Part shown: positions 602 to 55,633 of the stretch, piece by piece | How the letters are laid out: every line of letters starts with the position of its first letter | Position numbering within the stretch: the first letter of the stretch is position 1 | DNA from: Intestinimonas butyriciproducens | GTDB taxonomy: Bacteria; Bacillota; Clostridia; Oscillospirales; Butyricicoccaceae | Length of the DNA: 64,000 nt | Assembly (NCBI RefSeq): GCF_016901775.1 | Contig: NZ_JACJKW010000004.1 | Coordinates: 1-64,000 of the forward strand | Direction of reading: 5' to 3' | Position numbers and translations under genes: made by a program | Notes under the pieces: generated by a model | What the model was told of the DNA's origin: nothing | The model's database searches: none | The model's input: only the letters and a program-made list of their open reading frames with translations

Positions 602-612
602 GTCCAGTGCCT

Positions 613-676
613 GGACGGCCATAGTCCGGTGTCCGGACAGCCATAGTCCGTTGTCCGGACGGCCATACTACGGGGC
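613..676. repeat. 22-bp tandem repeat of about 3 units (GGACGGCCATAGTCCGGTGTCC).
   Basis: Read directly in the intergenic region between the convergent cupin and peptidase genes. Confidence 0.7.
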
Positions 677-12276: not shown

Positions 12277-12326
12277 ACAAACTGCCCGAAACCTATCCTG
12301 CAACAAGAGATGGTTTACTCTATTCT

Positions 12327-12514
12327 TCATCCATCCGCAAAAAGCCGCGACCTGTGCGTGGCTTTTTGCACCTATCAAGGGCGGGGTGACCCCGCAGGCA
12401 AACATTCTTTGCCCGGGCGTACACAACCTACCGGAGCAAAGAAAAAATGGGAGCGGCGGCTCGCCGCCAGACCCTTGCAAAGACTCGAAAAAGTGGCTTC
12501 CGCCACTTTTTCGA
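12327..12514 (+). repeat. Terminator-associated intergenic repeat, copy B (long form).
   Basis: Contains the 5' hairpin GCAAAAAGCC...GGCTTTTTGC and the 3' hairpin GAAAAAGTGGC...GCCACTTTTTC. Shares a 95-bp internal module with copy A. Confidence 0.8.
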
Positions 12515-13930: not shown

Positions 13931-14038
13931 CCTGAAAAACTCCTTTCCCAAGGCCGGGGCCTTTTCTGTCCACATTGTATCACGAAAGAGGCCCTCTGTG
14001 GGATTTTTTCTTCAAAACTTCTTGGACGCAAAGAAAAA

Positions 14039-14098
14039 GCAAATGCCCCCATTTGGTAGCAAATGCCCCCGTTTGGTAGCAAATGCCTCCATTTGGGG
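14039..14098. repeat. Three tandem 20-bp units (GCAAATGCCCCCATTTGGTA), each containing the inverted repeat CAAATG(N5)CATTTG.
   Basis: Read directly. About 110-170 bp upstream of the serine hydrolase start. Followed by a purine-rich tract at 14100-14200. Confidence 0.75.
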
Positions 14099-14203: not shown

Positions 14204-14329
14204 ATCAATCTGCAAAAAGCCGGGACCTGTGCGTGGCTTTTTGCACCTCTCAAGGGGCAAGTGTGCGCCAAAGGCGTGCATGCAGGCCCTTGCAAAAACT
14301 CGAAAAAGTGGCTTTTGCCACTTTTTCGA
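14204..14329 (+). repeat. Terminator-associated intergenic repeat, copy C (short form).
   Basis: Same end hairpins as copy B. Downstream of the MATE gene. Confidence 0.8.
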
Positions 14330-14428
14330 CACCCCTCCCAGGACGAAAACCACGCCTGGGAGGGAGTACACTGATGGCATAGGCCGGAGCCTTCCCAGCG
14401 GGAGCCATGGGAAAAGGCCCGGGAAAAC

Positions 14429-44287: not shown

Positions 44288-44288
<1 letters not shown>
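43158..44288 (-). CDS. Cysteine desulfurase (NifS/IscS family, class V aminotransferase).
   Basis: PLP-lysine context SGHK and active-site SGGSAC. Lies upstream of thiI. Confidence 0.85.
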
Positions 44289-45958
<1,670 letters not shown>

Positions 45959-46057: not shown

Positions 46058-47716
46058 TTATTTTGCCAGAAATTCTTTCATCTTCCGGAGGCGGGAGAGG
46101 CTGCGCTCCTTGCCCAGAAGGGTCATGATGGACCAAAGGTCGGGGGAATTTTTCCGGCCGGTGATGGCCACCCGCACCACATTGCTCACATCGCCCACAT
46201 GGCCTTTCCAGCCGGTGGGGTCCTGCTTGTACGCCTTGACCTCCGGGCAGAAGCCCAGGCCCTCGCAGATGGCCTTGACCCCGTCAAACCAGGTGTTCTT
46301 GTCGGGGGCTTCCTCATAGGCCTTGGCGTAGGTGTCCAGAATGGCGATCATATCTTCTTTCTGGAGATTCTCCGGCAGGTCGTATTCTCCCTGCCATGTT
46401 TCGTCATAAAAATAGCTCACATAATCCCGCACATCGCTCCACTTGCGGATGTCCTTCCGGGGCTTTTTGCCGCCCCGGTCGATGGCGAAGATGCCCTGGG
46501 CATAGTCTGTGTCCCGATTGAGAAGGGCATACAGCTGCTCATCGTGGCCCTTTGCCCATTCCAGCACATCCTTCGTCACCTTCTCTGCGTCAAAGGCGCC
46601 GATGACGCCGGCGGACACATCGGCCAGCTTCACCAGGTCGAACAAAGCGCCCGACTGGCTCATCTTGTTCAGCTGGAGCTTGTAATCCTGGTAAGGTGCG
46701 GTCTTGTTCTGCCGTCTCCAATCCTCAAAGGGGGAATTGGCCAGGTTGAGCAGATATTCCAGCACCGCTTCCTTGGGATAGCCCTCGTCCACAAAATAGG
46801 AAACGGCGGCTTCCGGGTCTTTCCGCTTGCTCAGCTTCCGCTTGGCTCCATTGTCCTCTTTCATCACAGGGGAGACATGGGCGTACTTGGGCGGCTTGAG
46901 TCCCAGCACATAGAAGAGCTGAAGGTGAGTGGGCACAGAAGAGACCCATTCATCGCTGCGCACCACATGGGTGGTACCCATCAGGGTGTCGTCCACGGCG
47001 TGGGCAAAGTGATAGGTGGGGATGCCGTCTGTTTTGAGAAGCACGATATCGGCGATGTTTTCGTCCATCTCGATCTCGCCCCGGATCACATCCTTGTATT
47101 TGATCCGGCCGCCGGGCTTGCCCGGCGAGCGCAGGCGCATCACATAGGGCTTACCCGCCTTGATGTTCTCCTCCACCTGCTCCATGGTCAGGTCACGGCA
47201 GCGGGCGTAGGTGGTATGGTAGCCGGGCAGGGCCTTTTCCGCCTCCTGCTGCTTGCGGATGGCGGCCAGGTCCTCTTCGGTGCAGAAGCAGGGATAGGCC
47301 AGGCCGCGCTTCACCAGTTCCTTGCAGAAGGCCTGATAAATGGGGCCACGGCGGCTTTGCTGGTAGGGGCCGTAATCGCCCTTTTCCTCGGTCTGGCTCA
47401 TCATGCCTTCGTCAAATTCCACGCCAAAATCACGCAGGCCCGAGACGATACCAGTGATGCCGTCCTCCACTTCCCGCTTCTTGTCGGTGTCCTCGATGCG
47501 CAGGATGATCCTGCCGCCGCTTTGGTGGGCCAGCCGCTCGTTGACCAGGGCGGTGAACAAACCGCCGATGTGGAGAAAGCCGGTGGGGCTGGGGGCAAAC
47601 CGGGTGACCATGGCCCCCTGGGGCAGGTTCCGGGGAGGATAGATCTCTGTGAGATATTCCTCCATGGTTTTGTCGATGTGGGGGAACAGCAGTTCCGCCA
47701 GTTTATTATGATCCAT
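46058..47716 (-). CDS. gltX: Glutamate--tRNA ligase.
   Basis: HIGG motif FAPSPTGFLHIGG and KLSKR motif. Start at 47716. The long upstream ORF extension is read-through of repeats. Confidence 0.85.
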   Translation of the reverse strand: MDHNKLAELLFPHIDKTMEEYLTEIYPPRNLPQGAMVTRFAPSPTGFLHIGGLFTALVNERLAHQSGGRIILRIEDTDKKREVEDGITGIVSGLRDFGVEFDEGMMSQTEEKGDYGPYQQSRRGPIYQAFCKELVKRGLAYPCFCTEEDLAAIRKQQEAEKALPGYHTTYARCRDLTMEQVEENIKAGKPYVMRLRSPGKPGGRIKYKDVIRGEIEMDENIADIVLLKTDGIPTYHFAHAVDDTLMGTTHVVRSDEWVSSVPTHLQLFYVLGLKPPKYAHVSPVMKEDNGAKRKLSKRKDPEAAVSYFVDEGYPKEAVLEYLLNLANSPFEDWRRQNKTAPYQDYKLQLNKMSQSGALFDLVKLADVSAGVIGAFDAEKVTKDVLEWAKGHDEQLYALLNRDTDYAQGIFAIDRGGKKPRKDIRKWSDVRDYVSYFYDETWQGEYDLPENLQKEDMIAILDTYAKAYEEAPDKNTWFDGVKAICEGLGFCPEVKAYKQDPTGWKGHVGDVSNVVRVAITGRKNSPDLWSIMTLLGKERSLSRLRKMKEFLAK

Positions 47717-47773
47717 TACACTTCCACTCCAAATTTCCCGGGAAAATCTTCCCTGGGCACAGTTTGATATTTT

Positions 47774-47803
47774 ATTATATCCTGTTTCTCCCCACATTGC
47801 AAC
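47774..47803 (-). promoter_or_regulatory. Sigma-A promoter for gltX (-35 TTGCAA, 18-nt spacer, -10 TATAAT).
   Basis: Read on the minus strand, about 50 nt upstream of the gltX ATG. Confidence 0.6.
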
Positions 47804-47804
47804 C

Positions 47805-47906
47805 GGGCGGAGTGCCTCCGCTGCCATACTGCGCAGCGCCAAGTCTTGTGAAGGAAACTTCCTTGCTTCACGCTGCGCGGCGGCATTTGCTGCACATGGC
47901 TTCACC
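47805..47906. repeat. Structured direct repeat, unit 1 (about 102 bp), upstream of the gltX promoter.
   Basis: About 85% identical to unit 2 at 47984-48085. Contains hairpin GGCGGAGTGCCTCCGC and a long imperfect hairpin with an inner stem AAGGAA/TTCCTT. Confidence 0.75.
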
Positions 47907-47983
47907 TCAACTAGAGCGGCGTACCACCGGGGGCATACTGGCCCTCCCCGAACTCCAGTGGCACAGGAGCCTGTCATTTGGTC

Positions 47984-48085
47984 GGGCAGAGTGCCTCCGC
48001 TGTCACACTGCGCAGCGCCAAGTCTTGTGGAGAAAACTTCTCTATATCACGCTGCGCAGCGGCATTTGCTGCACAAGGTTTTACC
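47984..48085. repeat. Structured direct repeat, unit 2; the inner stem is changed to GAGAA/TTCTC (compensatory).
   Basis: Begins about 38 nt after the ribokinase stop. Confidence 0.75.
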
Positions 48086-48122
48086 TTAGTGCAAGCTGCT
48101 GCACCTCCCAGCCAGGGGAGGG

Positions 48123-48992
48123 TCAGTTTGGCAGTGCGGCCGCCGCACTGCCGGGGTGTTGGATGGTCTGGGCAGCGGCCCAGGCAGCCTTCTCCAAAGC
48201 CTGTGGGATGCTCTGCCCCATCATGCGGCTGGCCACGAAAAAGCCGGTGAAAGCATCCCCGGCTCCGGTGGTGTCCACTACCGGTACGGAAAAGGCCTTC
48301 TGGAACACCCATTCCCCCTGATGCAGGCACCAGGCCCCCCGGCTGCCCAGGGTGAGCACCAGGGTATCCCCCTGGAACCACTCTTCCAGCCCGCGACGCA
48401 AAACCTCTTCCTCCCGTGCTTCTCCCCCCAGCAGCTGACGCCCTTCCACCTGGTTGAGCACCAGGCAATGTACCTTTTCCAGACATAGCCCCAGCAGCTC
48501 CGGTTCCATGGGCGAAGGGTTGAAAACCACCTGCATTCCCCGTTTTCTCCCTTCTCTGAGCAGCAGGGGCAAACAGCTGATCTCGTTTTGCAGCACCAGC
48601 CAGTCCCCCGGGGCAAAATGCTCCAAGGTCTCCTGCACCTGGTCGGCTGTAATGCACCGGTTGGCTCCGCCATGGAGCAGGATGCAGTTTTCCCCGGCCC
48701 CGTCCCGCTGAATGACGGCGGTGCCGGTGTTCCCCGGCAGCTGCCGCACAAAGGAAATGTCCACACCAGCCCCCTGAAGGGTTTCCAGGAGAAACTCCCC
48801 GTCCTCTCCCACGCTTCCCGCCATATAAGCCTGGGCCCCGGCCCGGCTCAGGGCCACCGCCTGATTCAGCCCTTTGCCTCCGGCCAGCCGCTGCCGGGAC
48901 AGCGCGCTGAGTGTCTCCCCCGCTCCCACAAAATGGGGCACCTGATAGATATAATCAATGTTCAGCGATCCAAAGCACAGCGCCTTCGCCAT
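48123..48992 (-). CDS. PfkB-family carbohydrate kinase (ribokinase-like).
   Basis: N-terminal GSLNIDY and C-terminal DTTGAGDAF motifs. ATG at 48992 with AGGTGAG RBS. Confidence 0.8.
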   Translation of the reverse strand: MAKALCFGSLNIDYIYQVPHFVGAGETLSALSRQRLAGGKGLNQAVALSRAGAQAYMAGSVGEDGEFLLETLQGAGVDISFVRQLPGNTGTAVIQRDGAGENCILLHGGANRCITADQVQETLEHFAPGDWLVLQNEISCLPLLLREGRKRGMQVVFNPSPMEPELLGLCLEKVHCLVLNQVEGRQLLGGEAREEEVLRRGLEEWFQGDTLVLTLGSRGAWCLHQGEWVFQKAFSVPVVDTTGAGDAFTGFFVASRMMGQSIPQALEKAAWAAAQTIQHPGSAAAALPN

Positions 48993-49014
48993 TTTTCTCA
49001 CCTCTCGGAAGAGT

Positions 49015-49203: not shown

Positions 49204-49275
49204 GGCGCTGCAAGATATAGCAAAGAGAAAACCGATCACAGAATAATACAGTATCAGGCGCCCTTTTGCCCTTTT

Positions 49276-49400
49276 TTCAATCTGCAAAAAGCGGCGACCT
49301 GTGCGTCGGTTTTTGCACCTCTCAAGAGACCGGTGTGCGCCAAGGGCGTGCGCCGTGCCTCTTGCAAAAACTGGAAAAAGCGGCTAAGCCGCTTTTTCGA
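49276..49400 (+). repeat. Terminator-associated intergenic repeat, copy D (short form). Its end hairpins carry covarying substitutions.
   Basis: The 3' hairpin GAAAAAGCGGC..GCCGCTTTTTC differs from GAAAAAGTGGC..GCCACTTTTTC of the other copies by a compensatory pair. Confidence 0.8.
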
Positions 49401-49405
49401 AAGGC

Positions 49406-51890: not shown

Positions 51891-52025
51891 TGTCGAAAAA
51901 GTGGCCTGGGCCACTTTTTCGAGTTTTGCAAGAAGCTGCATGCACGCCTGTGGCGCACACTGGCTTCTTGATCGGTGCAAAAAGCCACGCACAGGTCGCG
52001 GCTTTTTGCAGATTGATGAAAGATA
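51891..52025 (-). repeat. Terminator-associated intergenic repeat, copy E (short form, inverted).
   Basis: Reverse complement matches copies C and D end to end. Confidence 0.8.
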
Positions 52026-54940: not shown

Positions 54941-54969
54941 AAAAAAACACAAGCGGCGTGACGCCGCTG
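54941..54969 (-). terminator. Intrinsic terminator inside the metG upstream region (AGCGGCGucacGCCGCU plus U-run), followed by a candidate promoter TTGTGT ... TATGAT.
   Basis: Read on the minus strand. Could be the end of the upstream gene or a leader attenuator. Confidence 0.5.
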
Positions 54970-54970
54970 T

Positions 54971-55024
54971 CATACTTTCTTTGCCTTGGTGAACACAACC
55001 GTCCCTGGCTCTATTGCACAGCGG
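54971..55024. repeat. 54-bp direct repeat, unit 1 (CATACTTTCTTTGCCTTGGTGAACACAACCGTCCCTGGCTCTATTGCACAGCGG).
   Basis: 48 of 54 positions identical to unit 2 at 55066-55119. Between them lies the palindrome GCGGGGgCGCCCCGC. Confidence 0.75.
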
Positions 55025-55065
55025 GGGAGCGCAGTACGGGTGCAGCGTCAGCGGGGCGCCCCCGC

Positions 55066-55119
55066 GGCCATACTTTCTTGGCCCTGGTGAACACAACTGT
55101 CCCTGGCTCTACCGCACAG
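55066..55119. repeat. 54-bp direct repeat, unit 2; overlaps the last codons of the upstream hypothetical gene.
   Basis: See unit 1. Confidence 0.75.
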
Positions 55120-55633
55120 CGGAAACGCCTTTTTGGCCGATGGCTTTTCCCAAGGCAAGCAGGCTTTCCAGAAGCTCCGGGTTACGGCTCTGATAAAAGT
55201 CCTCCCATTCCGTTTCCCACTGGCCCTCTGTGTTTTTCAGCTTCCACACCTTCACCTGTGGCCGCTCCGCCCCGATCAAGGACAGCGCCCAGGCGTCCTT
55301 TCCCTGGCGCATCACAAAGCGAGTAGGGAAATACATCTGTCCCACTTCGGTCATCCGATGGGGCCAGGTGCCCAAAGAAAGATACAGATCCAGCAGATCG
55401 TCATACCGAAGATCTTCTGCCAGCGCCCGGATGGTGCCCTGGGCCCCTTTCCCCGAAACCGGCACGGTGATTCCTCTGTCCACATAGACATACTGAGTTT
55501 CCTGGAAAGGGGAAAGCCCCAGCTTTTCCGTGGGGCCGCCTTCTGCCCAGGAAAACAGGCCTACCACTCCCAGAATTATCGCTGTCAGCAGTACAAGACG
55601 CACAAAAAACCGTTTTCCAATATAGCGGATCAT
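55109..55633 (-). CDS. Hypothetical membrane-anchored protein (174 aa).
   Basis: N-terminal TM segment. No family recognised. Confidence 0.55.
   Translation of the reverse strand: MIRYIGKRFFVRLVLLTAIILGVVGLFSWAEGGPTEKLGLSPFQETQYVYVDRGITVPVSGKGAQGTIRALAEDLRYDDLLDLYLSLGTWPHRMTEVGQMYFPTRFVMRQGKDAWALSLIGAERPQVKVWKLKNTEGQWETEWEDFYQSRNPELLESLLALGKAIGQKGVSAVR

What the first reader, a model, noticed from the sequence alone, without database searches (positions are those of the whole stretch)
47805..48085. Two about 102-bp structured direct repeats with a compensatory stem change between ribokinase and the gltX promoter
Units at 47805-47906 and 47984-48085 share about 85% identity. They share a GC hairpin (GGCGGAGTGCCTCCGC) and a long imperfect hairpin closed by GCGCAGCG/CGCTGCGC. 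Its apical stem differs between copies by paired substitutions that preserve pairing: GTG-AAGGAA-ac-TTCCTT-gctt-CAC in unit 1 versus GTG-GAGAA-aac-TTCTC-tata-CAC in unit 2. Covariation implies a functional structured RNA or DNA element, not a recent neutral duplication. The units lie upstream of a well-formed gltX promoter (TTGCAA, 18-nt spacer, TATAAT) and therefore are not its leader. A T-box-like GGTGGTACGCCGC lies in the unit-1 tail, but it has no adjacent terminator/antiterminator and sits upstream of that promoter.
Basis: seen in the sequence. Interest (0 to 1): 0.7.

Follow-up and report, generated by a model that had tools for sequence, protein, structure and literature searches.

The report
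Variable hairpin-repeat array upstream of gltX
The two repeats are real, but they are neighbouring copies in a strain-variable array of hairpin-bounded repeat modules. The array belongs to a dispersed repeat family of one gut Oscillospiraceae lineage and is not a conserved regulatory RNA.

Summary
The two 104-nt units are real: 47804-47907 and 47983-48086, 87% identical and 179 nt apart.

No Rfam family matches them, and they are not a T-box.

In conspecific strains (GluRS about 99% identical) the same spacer measures 233 to 664 nt. It holds one to three copies of this unit (U) and of a second module (X), in at least eight arrangements. Several junctions are hybrids that switch exactly at a shared motif, GCGCAGTATG-N3-15-nt hairpin.

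Sister species (77-80% GluRS) keep the promoter but have no U or X.

The claimed compensatory apical stem does not hold up. The two stems pair in different registers, and 4 of 14 distinct copies are half-changed intermediates. RNAalifold does not predict that stem at all.

The terminal motif belongs to a dispersed family. A conserved ~64-nt core occurs in either orientation and is bounded by perfect 6-bp/3-nt-loop palindromes of many sequences that never show G·U. That points to constraint at the DNA level.

Best reading: a recombination-prone mosaic repeat array resembling neisserial NIMEs or enterobacterial BIMEs. One unexplained extra is that these hairpins abut promoter -35 boxes far more often than chance predicts.

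The parts
47804..47907 (-). Unit U_A, the promoter-proximal copy. It has a ~70-nt body specific to this locus, containing the GCGCAGCG...CGCTGCGC stem, plus the family terminal module GCGCAGTATG-GCA-GCGGAGGCACTCCGC.
   Evidence: CM R1 matches 47804-47850 at 41.7 bits, E 4e-8.
47908..47982 (-). Module X, the 'spacer' between the two units. It is a second repeat module that ends in the same kind of terminal motif (CAGTATG-CCC-CCGGTGGTACGCCGC). It contains the T-box-like string.
   Evidence: (family D3). CM R1 matches 47913-47959 at 31.9 bits. X is repeated 2-3 times in other strains.
47983..48086 (-). Unit U_B, the distal copy. Its apex sequence is the commonest variant among strains. Its terminal hairpin has one G·U position.
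   Evidence: CM R1 matches 47983-48029 at 33.4 bits.
48087..48122 (-). Linker plus the hairpin CCCTCCCCTGGCTGGGAGG, directly after the pfkB stop codon. In other strains this unit, together with the pfkB 3' end, is tandemly repeated 1-3 times.
   Evidence: Sequence (L020 has three 77-nt copies).
48123..48151 (-). Hairpin module GCAGTGCGG-CGG-CCGCACTGC followed by CAAACTGA. It encodes the last ~8 codons and the stop of the PfkB-family gene. Other strains carry a different hairpin type and so a different C-terminus.
   Evidence: Weak CM R1 match at 48115-48148 (16.7 bits, E 0.04). Sequence comparison.
47774..47802 (-). gltX promoter, TTGCAA-17-TATAAT. It abuts the terminal hairpin of U_A, 4 nt away.
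   Evidence: The -10 box, leader and RBS are conserved in four sister lineages.
46058..47716 (-). gltX (glutamate--tRNA ligase), followed by glnS at 44288-45958.
   Evidence: TIGR00464, 330 bits, above its cutoff.
48123..49001 (-). PfkB-family sugar kinase, ribokinase-like.
   Evidence: TIGR02152, 194 bits, below its cutoff of 299.65. Pfam PfkB appears in the orthologous loci.
54950..55122 (-). Second cluster of the same family: two canonical core units with three hairpin modules. The last hairpin abuts the -35 box of the metG promoter.
   Evidence: (D5).
602..669 (+). Three tandem 22-nt copies of a bare hairpin module, GTCCGGTGTCCGGAC+GGCCATA.
12378..12467 (+). Family hairpin modules nested inside a different dispersed repeat (family R). 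A 98%-identical inverted copy lies at 2797-2886.

Best explanation
The two units are adjacent copies in a short, recombination-prone tandem array of hairpin-bounded DNA repeat modules.

**The modules.** Each ends in the same ~25-30-nt motif: GCGCAGTATG, then 2-4 nt, then a 15-nt perfect palindrome with a 6-bp stem and a 3-nt loop.

**The family.** That motif is the boundary element of a dispersed mosaic repeat family in this Oscillospiraceae lineage (species of 'Ruminococcaceae bacterium AM07-15').

**How the array changes.**
- Shown: the array expands, contracts and reshuffles between strains, with crossover points at the shared motif.
- Inferred: the process is homologous recombination or replication slippage between the shared motifs, possibly helped by hairpin extrusion.

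**Constraint and origin.**
- The palindromes are constrained at the DNA level: always Watson-Crick, never G·U.
- The 70-nt U body is a young, species-specific sequence with no demonstrable RNA-level constraint.

**Local effect (inferred, not shown).** The array is a stack of stable hairpins between pfkB, which has no intrinsic terminator, and the gltX promoter, whose -35 box sits directly against the last hairpin.
For: **1. The array varies between conspecific strains (GluRS about 99% identical).**
- Spacer lengths are 233, 353, 405 (window), 455, 529, 605 and 664 nt.
- Module orders (P = gltX promoter): U-X-U (window); X-U-X (L001/L002/L004, L016/L017, L020); X-U-X-U-X (isolate AM07-15; TRF period 210, 2.4 copies, 92% matches); U alone (L023-26, L032, L068, L075); U-U with period 109 (L038).
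- Sources.
- Several arrangements recur in independent samples.

**2. Junctions are hybrid at the shared motif.**
- L015 joins a U body to an X-type hairpin.
- L018 and L019 join an X body to a U-type hairpin.
- L001 and L016 have chimeric hairpins with A·G or C·U mismatches, whereas L020 is fully swapped.

**3. The array is restricted to one species.**
- The U-body 19-mer occurs in only one of 185,579 species-representative genomes, AM07-15. The four other hits are in unrelated taxa and are chance matches.
- All 25 nhmmer matches to U lie upstream of gltX.
- Lineages with 77-80% GluRS identity keep the promoter but lack U and X.

**4. The motif belongs to a dispersed family.**
- The motif GCGGNGNGNCNCCGCNGNCATACT occurs 7 times in the window, against 0 expected.
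- A metagenome scan found it on dozens of gut-type contigs.
- An nhmmer model of the 64-nt core gives 62 hits, in both orientations.
- All 48 cores examined have a hairpin of at least 5 bp on the 5' flank, against 14% of shuffled flanks.
- Across 42 modules, 97.6% of hairpin cells are paired against 69.6% in shuffles. There are 64 double-change cells against 19 expected, and zero one-sided (G·U) cells.

**5. There is no RNA signature in the U body.**
- RNAalifold gives a covariation term of -0.49 kcal/mol and leaves the apex unpaired.
- One-sided changes give G·U on the minus strand at four pairs and on the plus strand at five.
- No Rfam match was found.
- No promoter or terminator consensus lies inside the array on either strand.
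Against: - Every strain surveyed keeps at least one U body next to gltX. This includes strains in which pfkB is truncated and partly replaced by a tetR gene. That could mean U is retained by selection rather than by linkage.
- The long U stem is 98% paired across copies, though with almost no variation to test it.
- Most comparison sequences are short-read metagenome assemblies, in which tandem copy numbers can be mis-assembled. The hybrid junctions share only 7-10 nt, however, which is too short to cause assembler jumps.
- No enzyme for dispersal of the family was found.
- There are no expression data.
- The strong association of the hairpin with promoter -35 boxes is not explained by a purely selfish or neutral repeat.
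Confidence: 0.62

Rival explanations
1. Promoter-linked module. The terminal hairpin, with or without the adjoining -35 box and G-rich spacer, is a functional or mobile promoter-upstream element. It could act as an insulator against read-through, or as a propagating 'mobile promoter' piece. On this reading the gltX array exists because such modules pile up there.
For: - 14 of 112 unique hairpin modules, from about 10 independent loci, are followed by a promoter-like site: TTGnnn at 0-5 nt, a 17-18-nt spacer, then TAnnnT. Chance predicts 0.4-0.5.
- The downstream genes are unrelated to one another: gltX, metG, a transporter, a peptidase and others.
- The spacers of hairpin-adjacent promoters carry a GGGG run in 5 of 8 cases, against 5 of 38 other promoter-like sites.
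- Compared with sister species, similarity at gltX drops sharply upstream of about -20. The window has TTGCAATGTGGGGAG where the sisters have TTGAAATGCACNGGC.
Against: - Most modules (about 88%) are not next to a promoter-like site.
- The gltX -10 box and leader are ancestral and work without any hairpin in sister species.
- The promoter sites are consensus matches only.
Confidence: 0.17
2. Structured RNA. U would be transcribed, for example by read-through from pfkB, and would act as an intercistronic stabiliser or processing site, or as a small RNA.
For: - pfkB has no terminator-like site, so read-through into the array is likely.
- The whole 409-nt spacer folds better than shuffles, z = -3.6.
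- Three of the four G·U-only pairs in the stems are compatible with the gene-sense strand.
Against: - Single units fold only marginally better than shuffles on the sense strand (z = -1.2 and -1.9), and better on the antisense strand.
- There is no covariation support.
- Half-changed apex intermediates persist in 4 of 14 copies.
- U is absent from sister species.
- The distance from U to the promoter varies by more than 100 nt between strains.
- U has no promoter or terminator of its own and no Rfam match.
Confidence: 0.1
3. A one-off neutral local tandem duplication with no relation to any repeat family.
For: The 70-nt U body occurs nowhere else. The pfkB 3' end is also locally duplicated in some strains.
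Against: - The first 31 of 47 aligned columns of U match the family boundary module, with CM score 41.7 bits.
- Crossovers sit at that module.
- The same module forms a second tandem cluster upstream of metG and a 22-nt x3 array at 602-669.
Confidence: 0.05
4. A degenerate or tandem T-box riboswitch regulating gltX.
For: The string GGTGGTACGCCGC resembles the T-box core, and the downstream gene encodes an aminoacyl-tRNA synthetase.
Against: - There is no RF00230 hit even at E<=10.
- The string lies upstream of a promoter conserved across species.
- The string is not conserved among strains.
- No terminator is present.
Confidence: 0.01

Closest known systems
Neisserial intergenic mosaic elements (NIMEs: RS modules bounded by dRS3 inverted repeats)
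   Same: - Short inverted-repeat boundary elements flank many different 50-150-bp modules.
- The modules are clustered in intergenic arrays.
- Repeat number and array length differ between strains at syntenic loci (definition checked in PMC1797815).
- Here 15-nt palindromes bound U, X and the canonical 64-nt core.
- The array is also the right-hand breakpoint of a gene replacement (pfkB against tetR), which echoes the proposed role of NIMEs in exchanging flanking genes.
   Different: - There is no sequence relation. dRS3 is ATTCCC-N8-GGGAAT, with fixed arms and a variable centre. Here the arms vary and covary (G-N4-G N3 C-N4-C).
- The host is a Gram-positive gut anaerobe.
- A conserved AGTATG/CATACT motif lies next to the palindrome.
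- No recombinase or phage link is known, and the core has no match in 2.9 million viral contigs.
REP / BIME / REPIN elements of Proteobacteria
   Same: - GC-rich palindromes with an adjacent short conserved motif.
- Restricted to intergenic regions, often in clusters with conserved linkers.
- Copy number varies.
- Known to affect mRNA stability and to act as recombination substrates (established knowledge, not tested here).
   Different: - The flanking hairpins of one core are of different sequence types, so they do not form a REPIN-type long hairpin.
- There is no GTAG motif.
- No RAYT-like gene was found in the 649 kb held. That search was weak because it used query sequences recalled from memory.
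BOX elements of Streptococcus pneumoniae and bacterial VNTR/minisatellite loci (for example MIRUs)
   Same: Modular structure, with a middle module repeated a variable number of times between strains. Located between genes, and hairpin-forming.
   Different: The periods are longer (109-210 nt). The modules are bounded by covarying perfect palindromes. The U body is single-locus rather than dispersed.
Putative mobile promoters (Matus-Garcia et al., PMC3488235; title and abstract only)
   Same: Similar promoter-bearing sequence appears upstream of unrelated genes.
   Different: Only a minority of modules abut promoters, and homology of the promoter part itself is not established.

Membership tests
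T-box riboswitch (RF00230) | Match to the covariance model | tested here: not met
   No T-box hit at E<=10 in 47000-49000, nor at gathering score anywhere in the window.
T-box riboswitch (RF00230) | Located in the 5' leader, between promoter and start codon, with a terminator/antiterminator | tested here: not met
   The string lies about 115 nt upstream of the conserved -35 box, and no terminator-like site is present.
T-box riboswitch (RF00230) | Conserved T-box sequence | tested here: not met
   GGTGGTAC reads GGCGGCAC, AGTGGCAC or GATGGCAC in conspecific strains.
Structured cis-regulatory RNA or sRNA (generic) | Covariation supporting the proposed helices | tested here: not met
   - Apex helix: 1 double change, 4 broken intermediates, and a register shift between the two window copies.
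- RNAalifold covariation term is -0.49 kcal/mol and the apex is unpaired.
- The only double changes are in the family hairpin and arise from module swapping.
Structured cis-regulatory RNA or sRNA (generic) | Conservation at the orthologous locus in related species | tested here: not met
   Absent from L102 and L103 (80% GluRS), L005 (78%) and L008 (77%), which all keep the promoter.
Structured cis-regulatory RNA or sRNA (generic) | Own promoter and terminator, or evidence of transcription | tested here: inconclusive
   No consensus promoter or terminator inside the array. No expression data are available.
Tandem repeat with variable copy number (VNTR/minisatellite) | Head-to-tail copies whose number differs between strains | tested here: met
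   1 to 3 U and 0 to 3 X copies. TRF finds period 210 x 2.4 in AM07-15. Periods are 179 in the window and 109 in L038.
NIME-like mosaic array | Short inverted repeats bounding diverse 50-150-bp modules in strain-variable intergenic arrays | tested here: met
   Definition taken from PMC1797815.
NIME-like mosaic array | dRS3 consensus ATTCCC-N8-GGGAAT | tested here: not met
   The boundary palindrome here is G-N4-G N3 C-N4-C. The resemblance is in architecture only, so this is an analogue and not a member.
REP/REPIN-RAYT | Two inverted REPs forming one long hairpin (REPIN) | tested here: not met
   The hairpins to the left and right of one core are usually of different sequence types.
REP/REPIN-RAYT | Cognate single-copy RAYT (Y1 HUH transposase) in the genome | tested here: inconclusive
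   tblastn with IS200, IS608 and RayT query sequences recalled from memory found nothing in the 649 kb held. The whole genome could not be fetched.
MITE | Terminal inverted repeats and target-site duplication flanking the unit | tested here: not met
   Only internal hairpins were found for U. A different element, family R at 49214-49405, does show a filled/empty-site polymorphism with a 19-nt direct repeat.
Diversity-generating retroelement (TR/VR pair) | Differences confined to adenines of one copy; reverse transcriptase nearby | tested here: not met
   The differences are A/T, G/A, C/T and T/C in both directions. The presence of a nearby reverse transcriptase was not checked.

The most novel reading that the evidence does not exclude
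The 15-nt covarying palindrome with its adjacent AGTATG motif could be the recognition site of an unidentified structure-specific DNA enzyme, such as an HUH or tyrosine transposase or a site-specific recombinase.

On this reading the enzyme shuffles and spreads modules through Oscillospiraceae genomes. That would make a Gram-positive counterpart of the NIME/dRS3 or REP/RAYT systems. It would also deposit -35 and G-run promoter pieces in front of housekeeping genes such as gltX and metG, rewiring their expression from strain to strain.
Probability: 0.2. Interest if true: 0.6.

Novelty: new member of a known kind. Interest (0 to 1): 0.33.

Why it matters
The result removes a false lead: there is no new riboswitch or small RNA in front of gltX. 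It also gives a worked example of how paired transitions in a purine/pyrimidine hairpin can look like covariation when only two copies are compared.

On the positive side, it documents a mosaic repeat family in abundant human-gut Clostridia that I could not find described. The family's features are:
- perfect covarying palindromes as module boundaries;
- tandem clusters that vary between strains, which may be useful as strain markers;
- module sequence that supplies the C-terminal codons of a gene;
- a statistically strong but unexplained tendency to sit directly against promoter -35 boxes.

If that association proves functional, it bears on how promoters are insulated or propagated in these genomes.

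Tried and rejected
- **T-box or any known RNA.** Rfam was run at gathering score on the whole window and at E<=10 on the locus, on the metG cluster, and on 20 family-rich contigs. It found only tRNAs, RNase P and an FMN riboswitch elsewhere.
- **An element specific to aminoacyl-tRNA synthetase genes.** I considered this because the second cluster sits upstream of metG. I rejected it because genes downstream of other promoter-abutting modules are unrelated to each other (a transporter, a peptidase and others).
- **DGR, CRISPR and MITE readings of U.** The differences are not adenine-specific, the spacing is irregular, and there are no terminal inverted repeats or target-site duplications.
- **Phage origin.** The core has no match in viral contigs. 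The degenerate motif has one hit, probably by chance.
- **RAYT or IS200-type transposase.** tblastn of the 649 kb held found nothing. The query sequences were recalled from memory, so this is weak evidence.
- **Exact-protein look-ups.** The window's own GluRS, PfkB and GlnRS sequences are not on record. Cluster members were used instead.
- **Literature.** Searches for a described repeat family in Oscillospiraceae or Faecalibacterium found nothing relevant.
- **My own error.** I first read the U_B terminal hairpin as a compensated A-T pair. The pair count shows it is a one-sided G·U, so I withdrew that argument.
- **TRF on the window.** It does not report the 179-nt pair, because fewer than two full copies pass its score threshold. 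The repeat finder does report it.

Full report
**1. The observation**

The direct repeat is real. The repeat finder reports 47804-47907 and 47983-48086, 104 nt long, 87% identical without gaps and spaced 179 nt apart. Words of 17-22 nt from the unit occur only at these two places in the 64-kb window, against 0-0.4 matches expected in shuffles.

Both flanking genes are on the minus strand:
- a PfkB-family, ribokinase-like kinase at 49001..48123 (ribokinase model 194 bits, below its cutoff);
- gltX at 47716..46058;
- glnS immediately after gltX.

In the gene sense the order is therefore pfkB stop, hairpin, unit U_B, a 75-nt stretch I call X, unit U_A, promoter, gltX.

The promoter-like site is TTGCAA-17-TATAAT at 47802..47774. 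It is the only such site in 47600-48300, and there is no terminator-like site there. An alignment with four sister lineages shows that the -10 box, leader and ribosome-binding site are conserved and that similarity stops just upstream.

**2. Not a known RNA**

Rfam 15 finds only two tRNAs in the window at gathering score. At E<=10 it finds nothing credible in 47000-49000, and no T-box.

The T-box-like GGTGGTAC lies inside X, upstream of the promoter. In conspecific strains it reads GGCGGCAC, AGTGGCAC or GATGGCAC.

**3. Strain comparison**

The window's GluRS is 99% identical to a protein cluster of 244 sequences that includes the isolate 'Ruminococcaceae bacterium AM07-15'. I fetched the gltX upstream region from about 20 contigs of this cluster. 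The spacer is rebuilt from the same modules in many ways (P = gltX promoter).

| Source | Module order | Spacer (nt) |
|---|---|---|
| Window | U-X-U-P | 405 |
| L001, L002, L004 | X-U-X-P | 529 |
| L016, L017 | X-U-X-P | 455 |
| L020 | X-U-X-P, preceded by three 77-nt copies of the pfkB 3' end plus a hairpin | 605 |
| AM07-15 | X-U-X-U-X-P (TRF period 210, 2.4 copies, 92% matches) | 664 |
| L015 | X-U-P, with the U body fused to an X-type hairpin | 353 |
| L018, L019 | array ends X-P, with that X body fused to a U-type hairpin | contigs incomplete |
| L038 | U-U-P, period 109 | not measured |
| L023-26, L032, L068, L075, L084 | a remnant of X, then one U, then P | 233 |

In the last group pfkB is truncated and followed by a tetR gene.

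The switch points of the hybrids lie in a motif shared by the 3' ends of U and X: CAGTATG, then 3 nt, then a 15-nt hairpin. Chimeric hairpins also exist. L001 has GCGGAG/CGCCGC and L016 has GCGGCG/CTCCGC, while L020 is fully swapped.

Several arrangements recur in independent samples. The shared junction sequence is only 7-10 nt, which is too short to cause assembler jumps. Absolute copy numbers from short-read assemblies should still be treated with caution.

**4. The covariation claim**

- In the ungapped alignment the window's two apical stems use different registers (i+j = 101 in U_A, 102 in U_B).
- In the commoner register, pair 45-57 is G-C in 9 copies and A-U in one (U_A only). It is an A·C mismatch in 4 copies: AM07-15 U2, L018 and both L038 copies. 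These carry the 5' half of the U_A apex with the 3' half of the U_B apex.
- In the other register the helix is only 70% paired.
- All stem differences are transitions in a purine run facing a pyrimidine run, so residual pairing is almost automatic.
- RNAalifold on the same alignment leaves columns 41-66 unpaired and gives a covariation term of -0.49 kcal/mol. Its only double-change pairs are in the terminal hairpin, where they reflect swapping between the U-type and X-type hairpins.
- One-sided changes produce G·U on the minus strand at four pairs and on the plus strand at five, so neither strand is favoured.
- Single units fold only marginally better than shuffles on the sense strand (z = -1.2 and -1.9). 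They fold somewhat better on the antisense strand (z = -3.2 and -2.3).

**5. Taxonomic range**

A 19-mer from the U body occurs in only one of 185,579 species-representative genomes, AM07-15, at this same locus. The four other hits are chance matches in unrelated taxa. All 25 nhmmer matches to U in the sequence I held are upstream of gltX.

The nearest sister lineages keep the promoter but have no U or X. These are L102 and L103 (80% GluRS), L005 (78%) and L008 (77%). U is therefore young and confined to one species.

**6. The repeat family**

The terminal motif is not private to this locus.
- GCGGNGNGNCNCCGCNGNCATACT occurs 7 times in the window, against 0 expected. The sites include a second tandem pair directly upstream of metG and copies nested in another dispersed repeat.
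- A metagenome scan with a degenerate form of the motif returned 75 stretches. About 45 are from human-gut-type assemblies and lie on many different contigs.
- These hits reveal a canonical unit: a ~64-nt core, CATACTGCGCTSCCGCGCTGGGCAA-CAGAAC...GGTTGTGT...GGCAAAGAGAG(TATG). It gives 62 nhmmer hits, occurs in either orientation, and in contig L080 occupies several neighbouring intergenic regions.
- The core is bounded by 15-nt palindromes of at least ten different sequences, all of the form G-N4-G N3 C-N4-C. All 48 5' flanks and 80% of 3' flanks carry a hairpin of at least 5 bp, against 13-14% of shuffled flanks.
- In an alignment of 42 modules, 97.6% of hairpin cells are paired against 69.6% in shuffles. 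Five of six pairs change on both sides, with 64 double-change cells against 19 expected. Not one cell is a one-sided G·U.
- Perfect Watson-Crick symmetry with no wobble is what a DNA palindrome shows and what a selected RNA helix usually does not show. This is my inference.
- U matches the family module over the first 31 of 47 aligned columns and then diverges.

A covariance model of the module (R1) finds eight strong copies in the window. It also finds weaker matches:
- three tandem 22-nt bare hairpin modules at 602-669;
- a hairpin at 48131-48151 which, with the following CAAACTGA, encodes the last codons and the stop of pfkB. Other strains carry a different hairpin type there and so a different C-terminus.

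Neither the family nor U matches Rfam. The core is absent from 2.9 million viral contigs.

**7. An unexplained association with promoters**

Among 112 unique hairpin modules, 14 (about 10 independent loci) are followed by a promoter-like site: TTGnnn within 0-5 nt, a 17-18-nt spacer, then TAnnnT. Chance predicts 0.4-0.5. The genes downstream are unrelated to one another, so the pattern is not specific to aminoacyl-tRNA synthetase genes.

The spacers of hairpin-adjacent promoters carry a GGGG run in 5 of 8 cases, against 5 of 38 other promoter-like sites. At gltX, similarity to sister species drops upstream of about -20. The -35 box and G-run may therefore have arrived with the repeat. This is a lead, not a result.

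**8. Interpretation**

- Shown: the array varies between strains, crossovers sit at the shared motif, the array is restricted to one species, the units carry the family's boundary module, and the palindromes covary at the DNA level.
- Inferred: the mechanism is recombination or slippage between the motifs. Inferred local effects are a hairpin barrier after the terminator-less pfkB, and possibly the supply of the -35 box.

Rivals:
- a promoter-linked functional or mobile module (0.17);
- a sense-strand structured RNA (0.10);
- an unrelated one-off duplication (0.05);
- a T-box (0.01).

**9. Comparison with known systems**

The closest match in architecture is the neisserial NIME. There, 20-bp dRS3 inverted repeats flank many 50-150-bp RS modules in arrays that differ between strains (PMC1797815). 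The resemblance includes the array lying at the breakpoint of a flanking-gene replacement.

It is not a member of that family. The boundary consensus differs, the host is unrelated, and no recombinase is known. REP/BIME/REPIN elements, pneumococcal BOX elements and VNTR loci share some features but not all; see the membership table.

**10. Caveats**
- Most comparison sequences are metagenome contigs.
- The whole AM07-15 genome could not be fetched, so copy number, orientation bias and a partner enzyme remain untested.
- No expression data were available.
- The promoter sites are consensus matches only.

Noticed in passing
window 49214-49405 (also 2747-2950, 12326-12514, 14204-14332, 51891-52020): A second dispersed intergenic repeat, 'family R', about 130-190 nt long and framed by two terminator-like hairpins. 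The copy between the gapA terminator and the tRNA-Gly promoter is absent from L023-type strains, which have a plain terminator hairpin there. The filled site is flanked by a 19-nt direct repeat, TTGCAGCGCCGGGGGATTT. This presence/absence polymorphism resembles a MITE.
   Followed up: partly
window 54950-55122; L041 13571-13837; L053 6294-6477: A tandem cluster of canonical family units lies directly upstream of the metG promoter. The last hairpin touches the -35 box (TTGTGT), and the promoter has an extended -10 (TGATAAAAT). Unit number differs between strains: two core units in the window and three in L041.
   Followed up: partly
window 602-669: Three head-to-tail copies of a 22-nt bare hairpin module (GTCCGGTGTCCGGAC GGCCATA) lie just after the stop codon of the gene at 104-601. 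So the boundary palindrome can form arrays on its own.
   Followed up: partly
window 48123-48151; L001 1950-1971: The last ~8 codons and the stop of the PfkB-family gene are encoded by a family hairpin module. Strains carry different hairpin types and so different C-termini (...PGSAAAALPN against ...PGSTVPVRAN). In L020 the gene's 3' end plus a hairpin is tandemly repeated three times.
   Followed up: partly
L023-L026, L032, L068, L075 (conspecific strains): pfkB is truncated to a 106-codon ORF with the same RBS and ATG, followed by a tetR-family gene. The right-hand breakpoint of this replacement lies inside module X of the array.
   Followed up: partly
metagenome loci L029, L052, L061, L062, L069, L076, L078, L085 and window 47774-47802: Promoters that abut a family hairpin tend to have a GGGGA(G/A) run in the spacer: 5 of 8, against 5 of 38 other promoter-like sites. 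L029 and L077 have near-identical promoter sequences but different hairpin types upstream.
   Followed up: partly
L008 2188-2330 (a different species, 77% GluRS): Two ~45-nt direct repeats (TATCGGCCGGCAAGCGCCGGCGGGCGYACTCGYGCAACCGCG) lie upstream of the conserved gltX promoter. They are unrelated in sequence to U and X. A repeat has therefore accumulated at the same position in another lineage.
   Followed up: no
window 14038-14096: A tandem repeat of 20 nt x 3 (AGCAAATGCCCCCATTTGGT), each copy a small hairpin, sits in a 455-nt intergenic region that also holds a family R copy.
   Followed up: no
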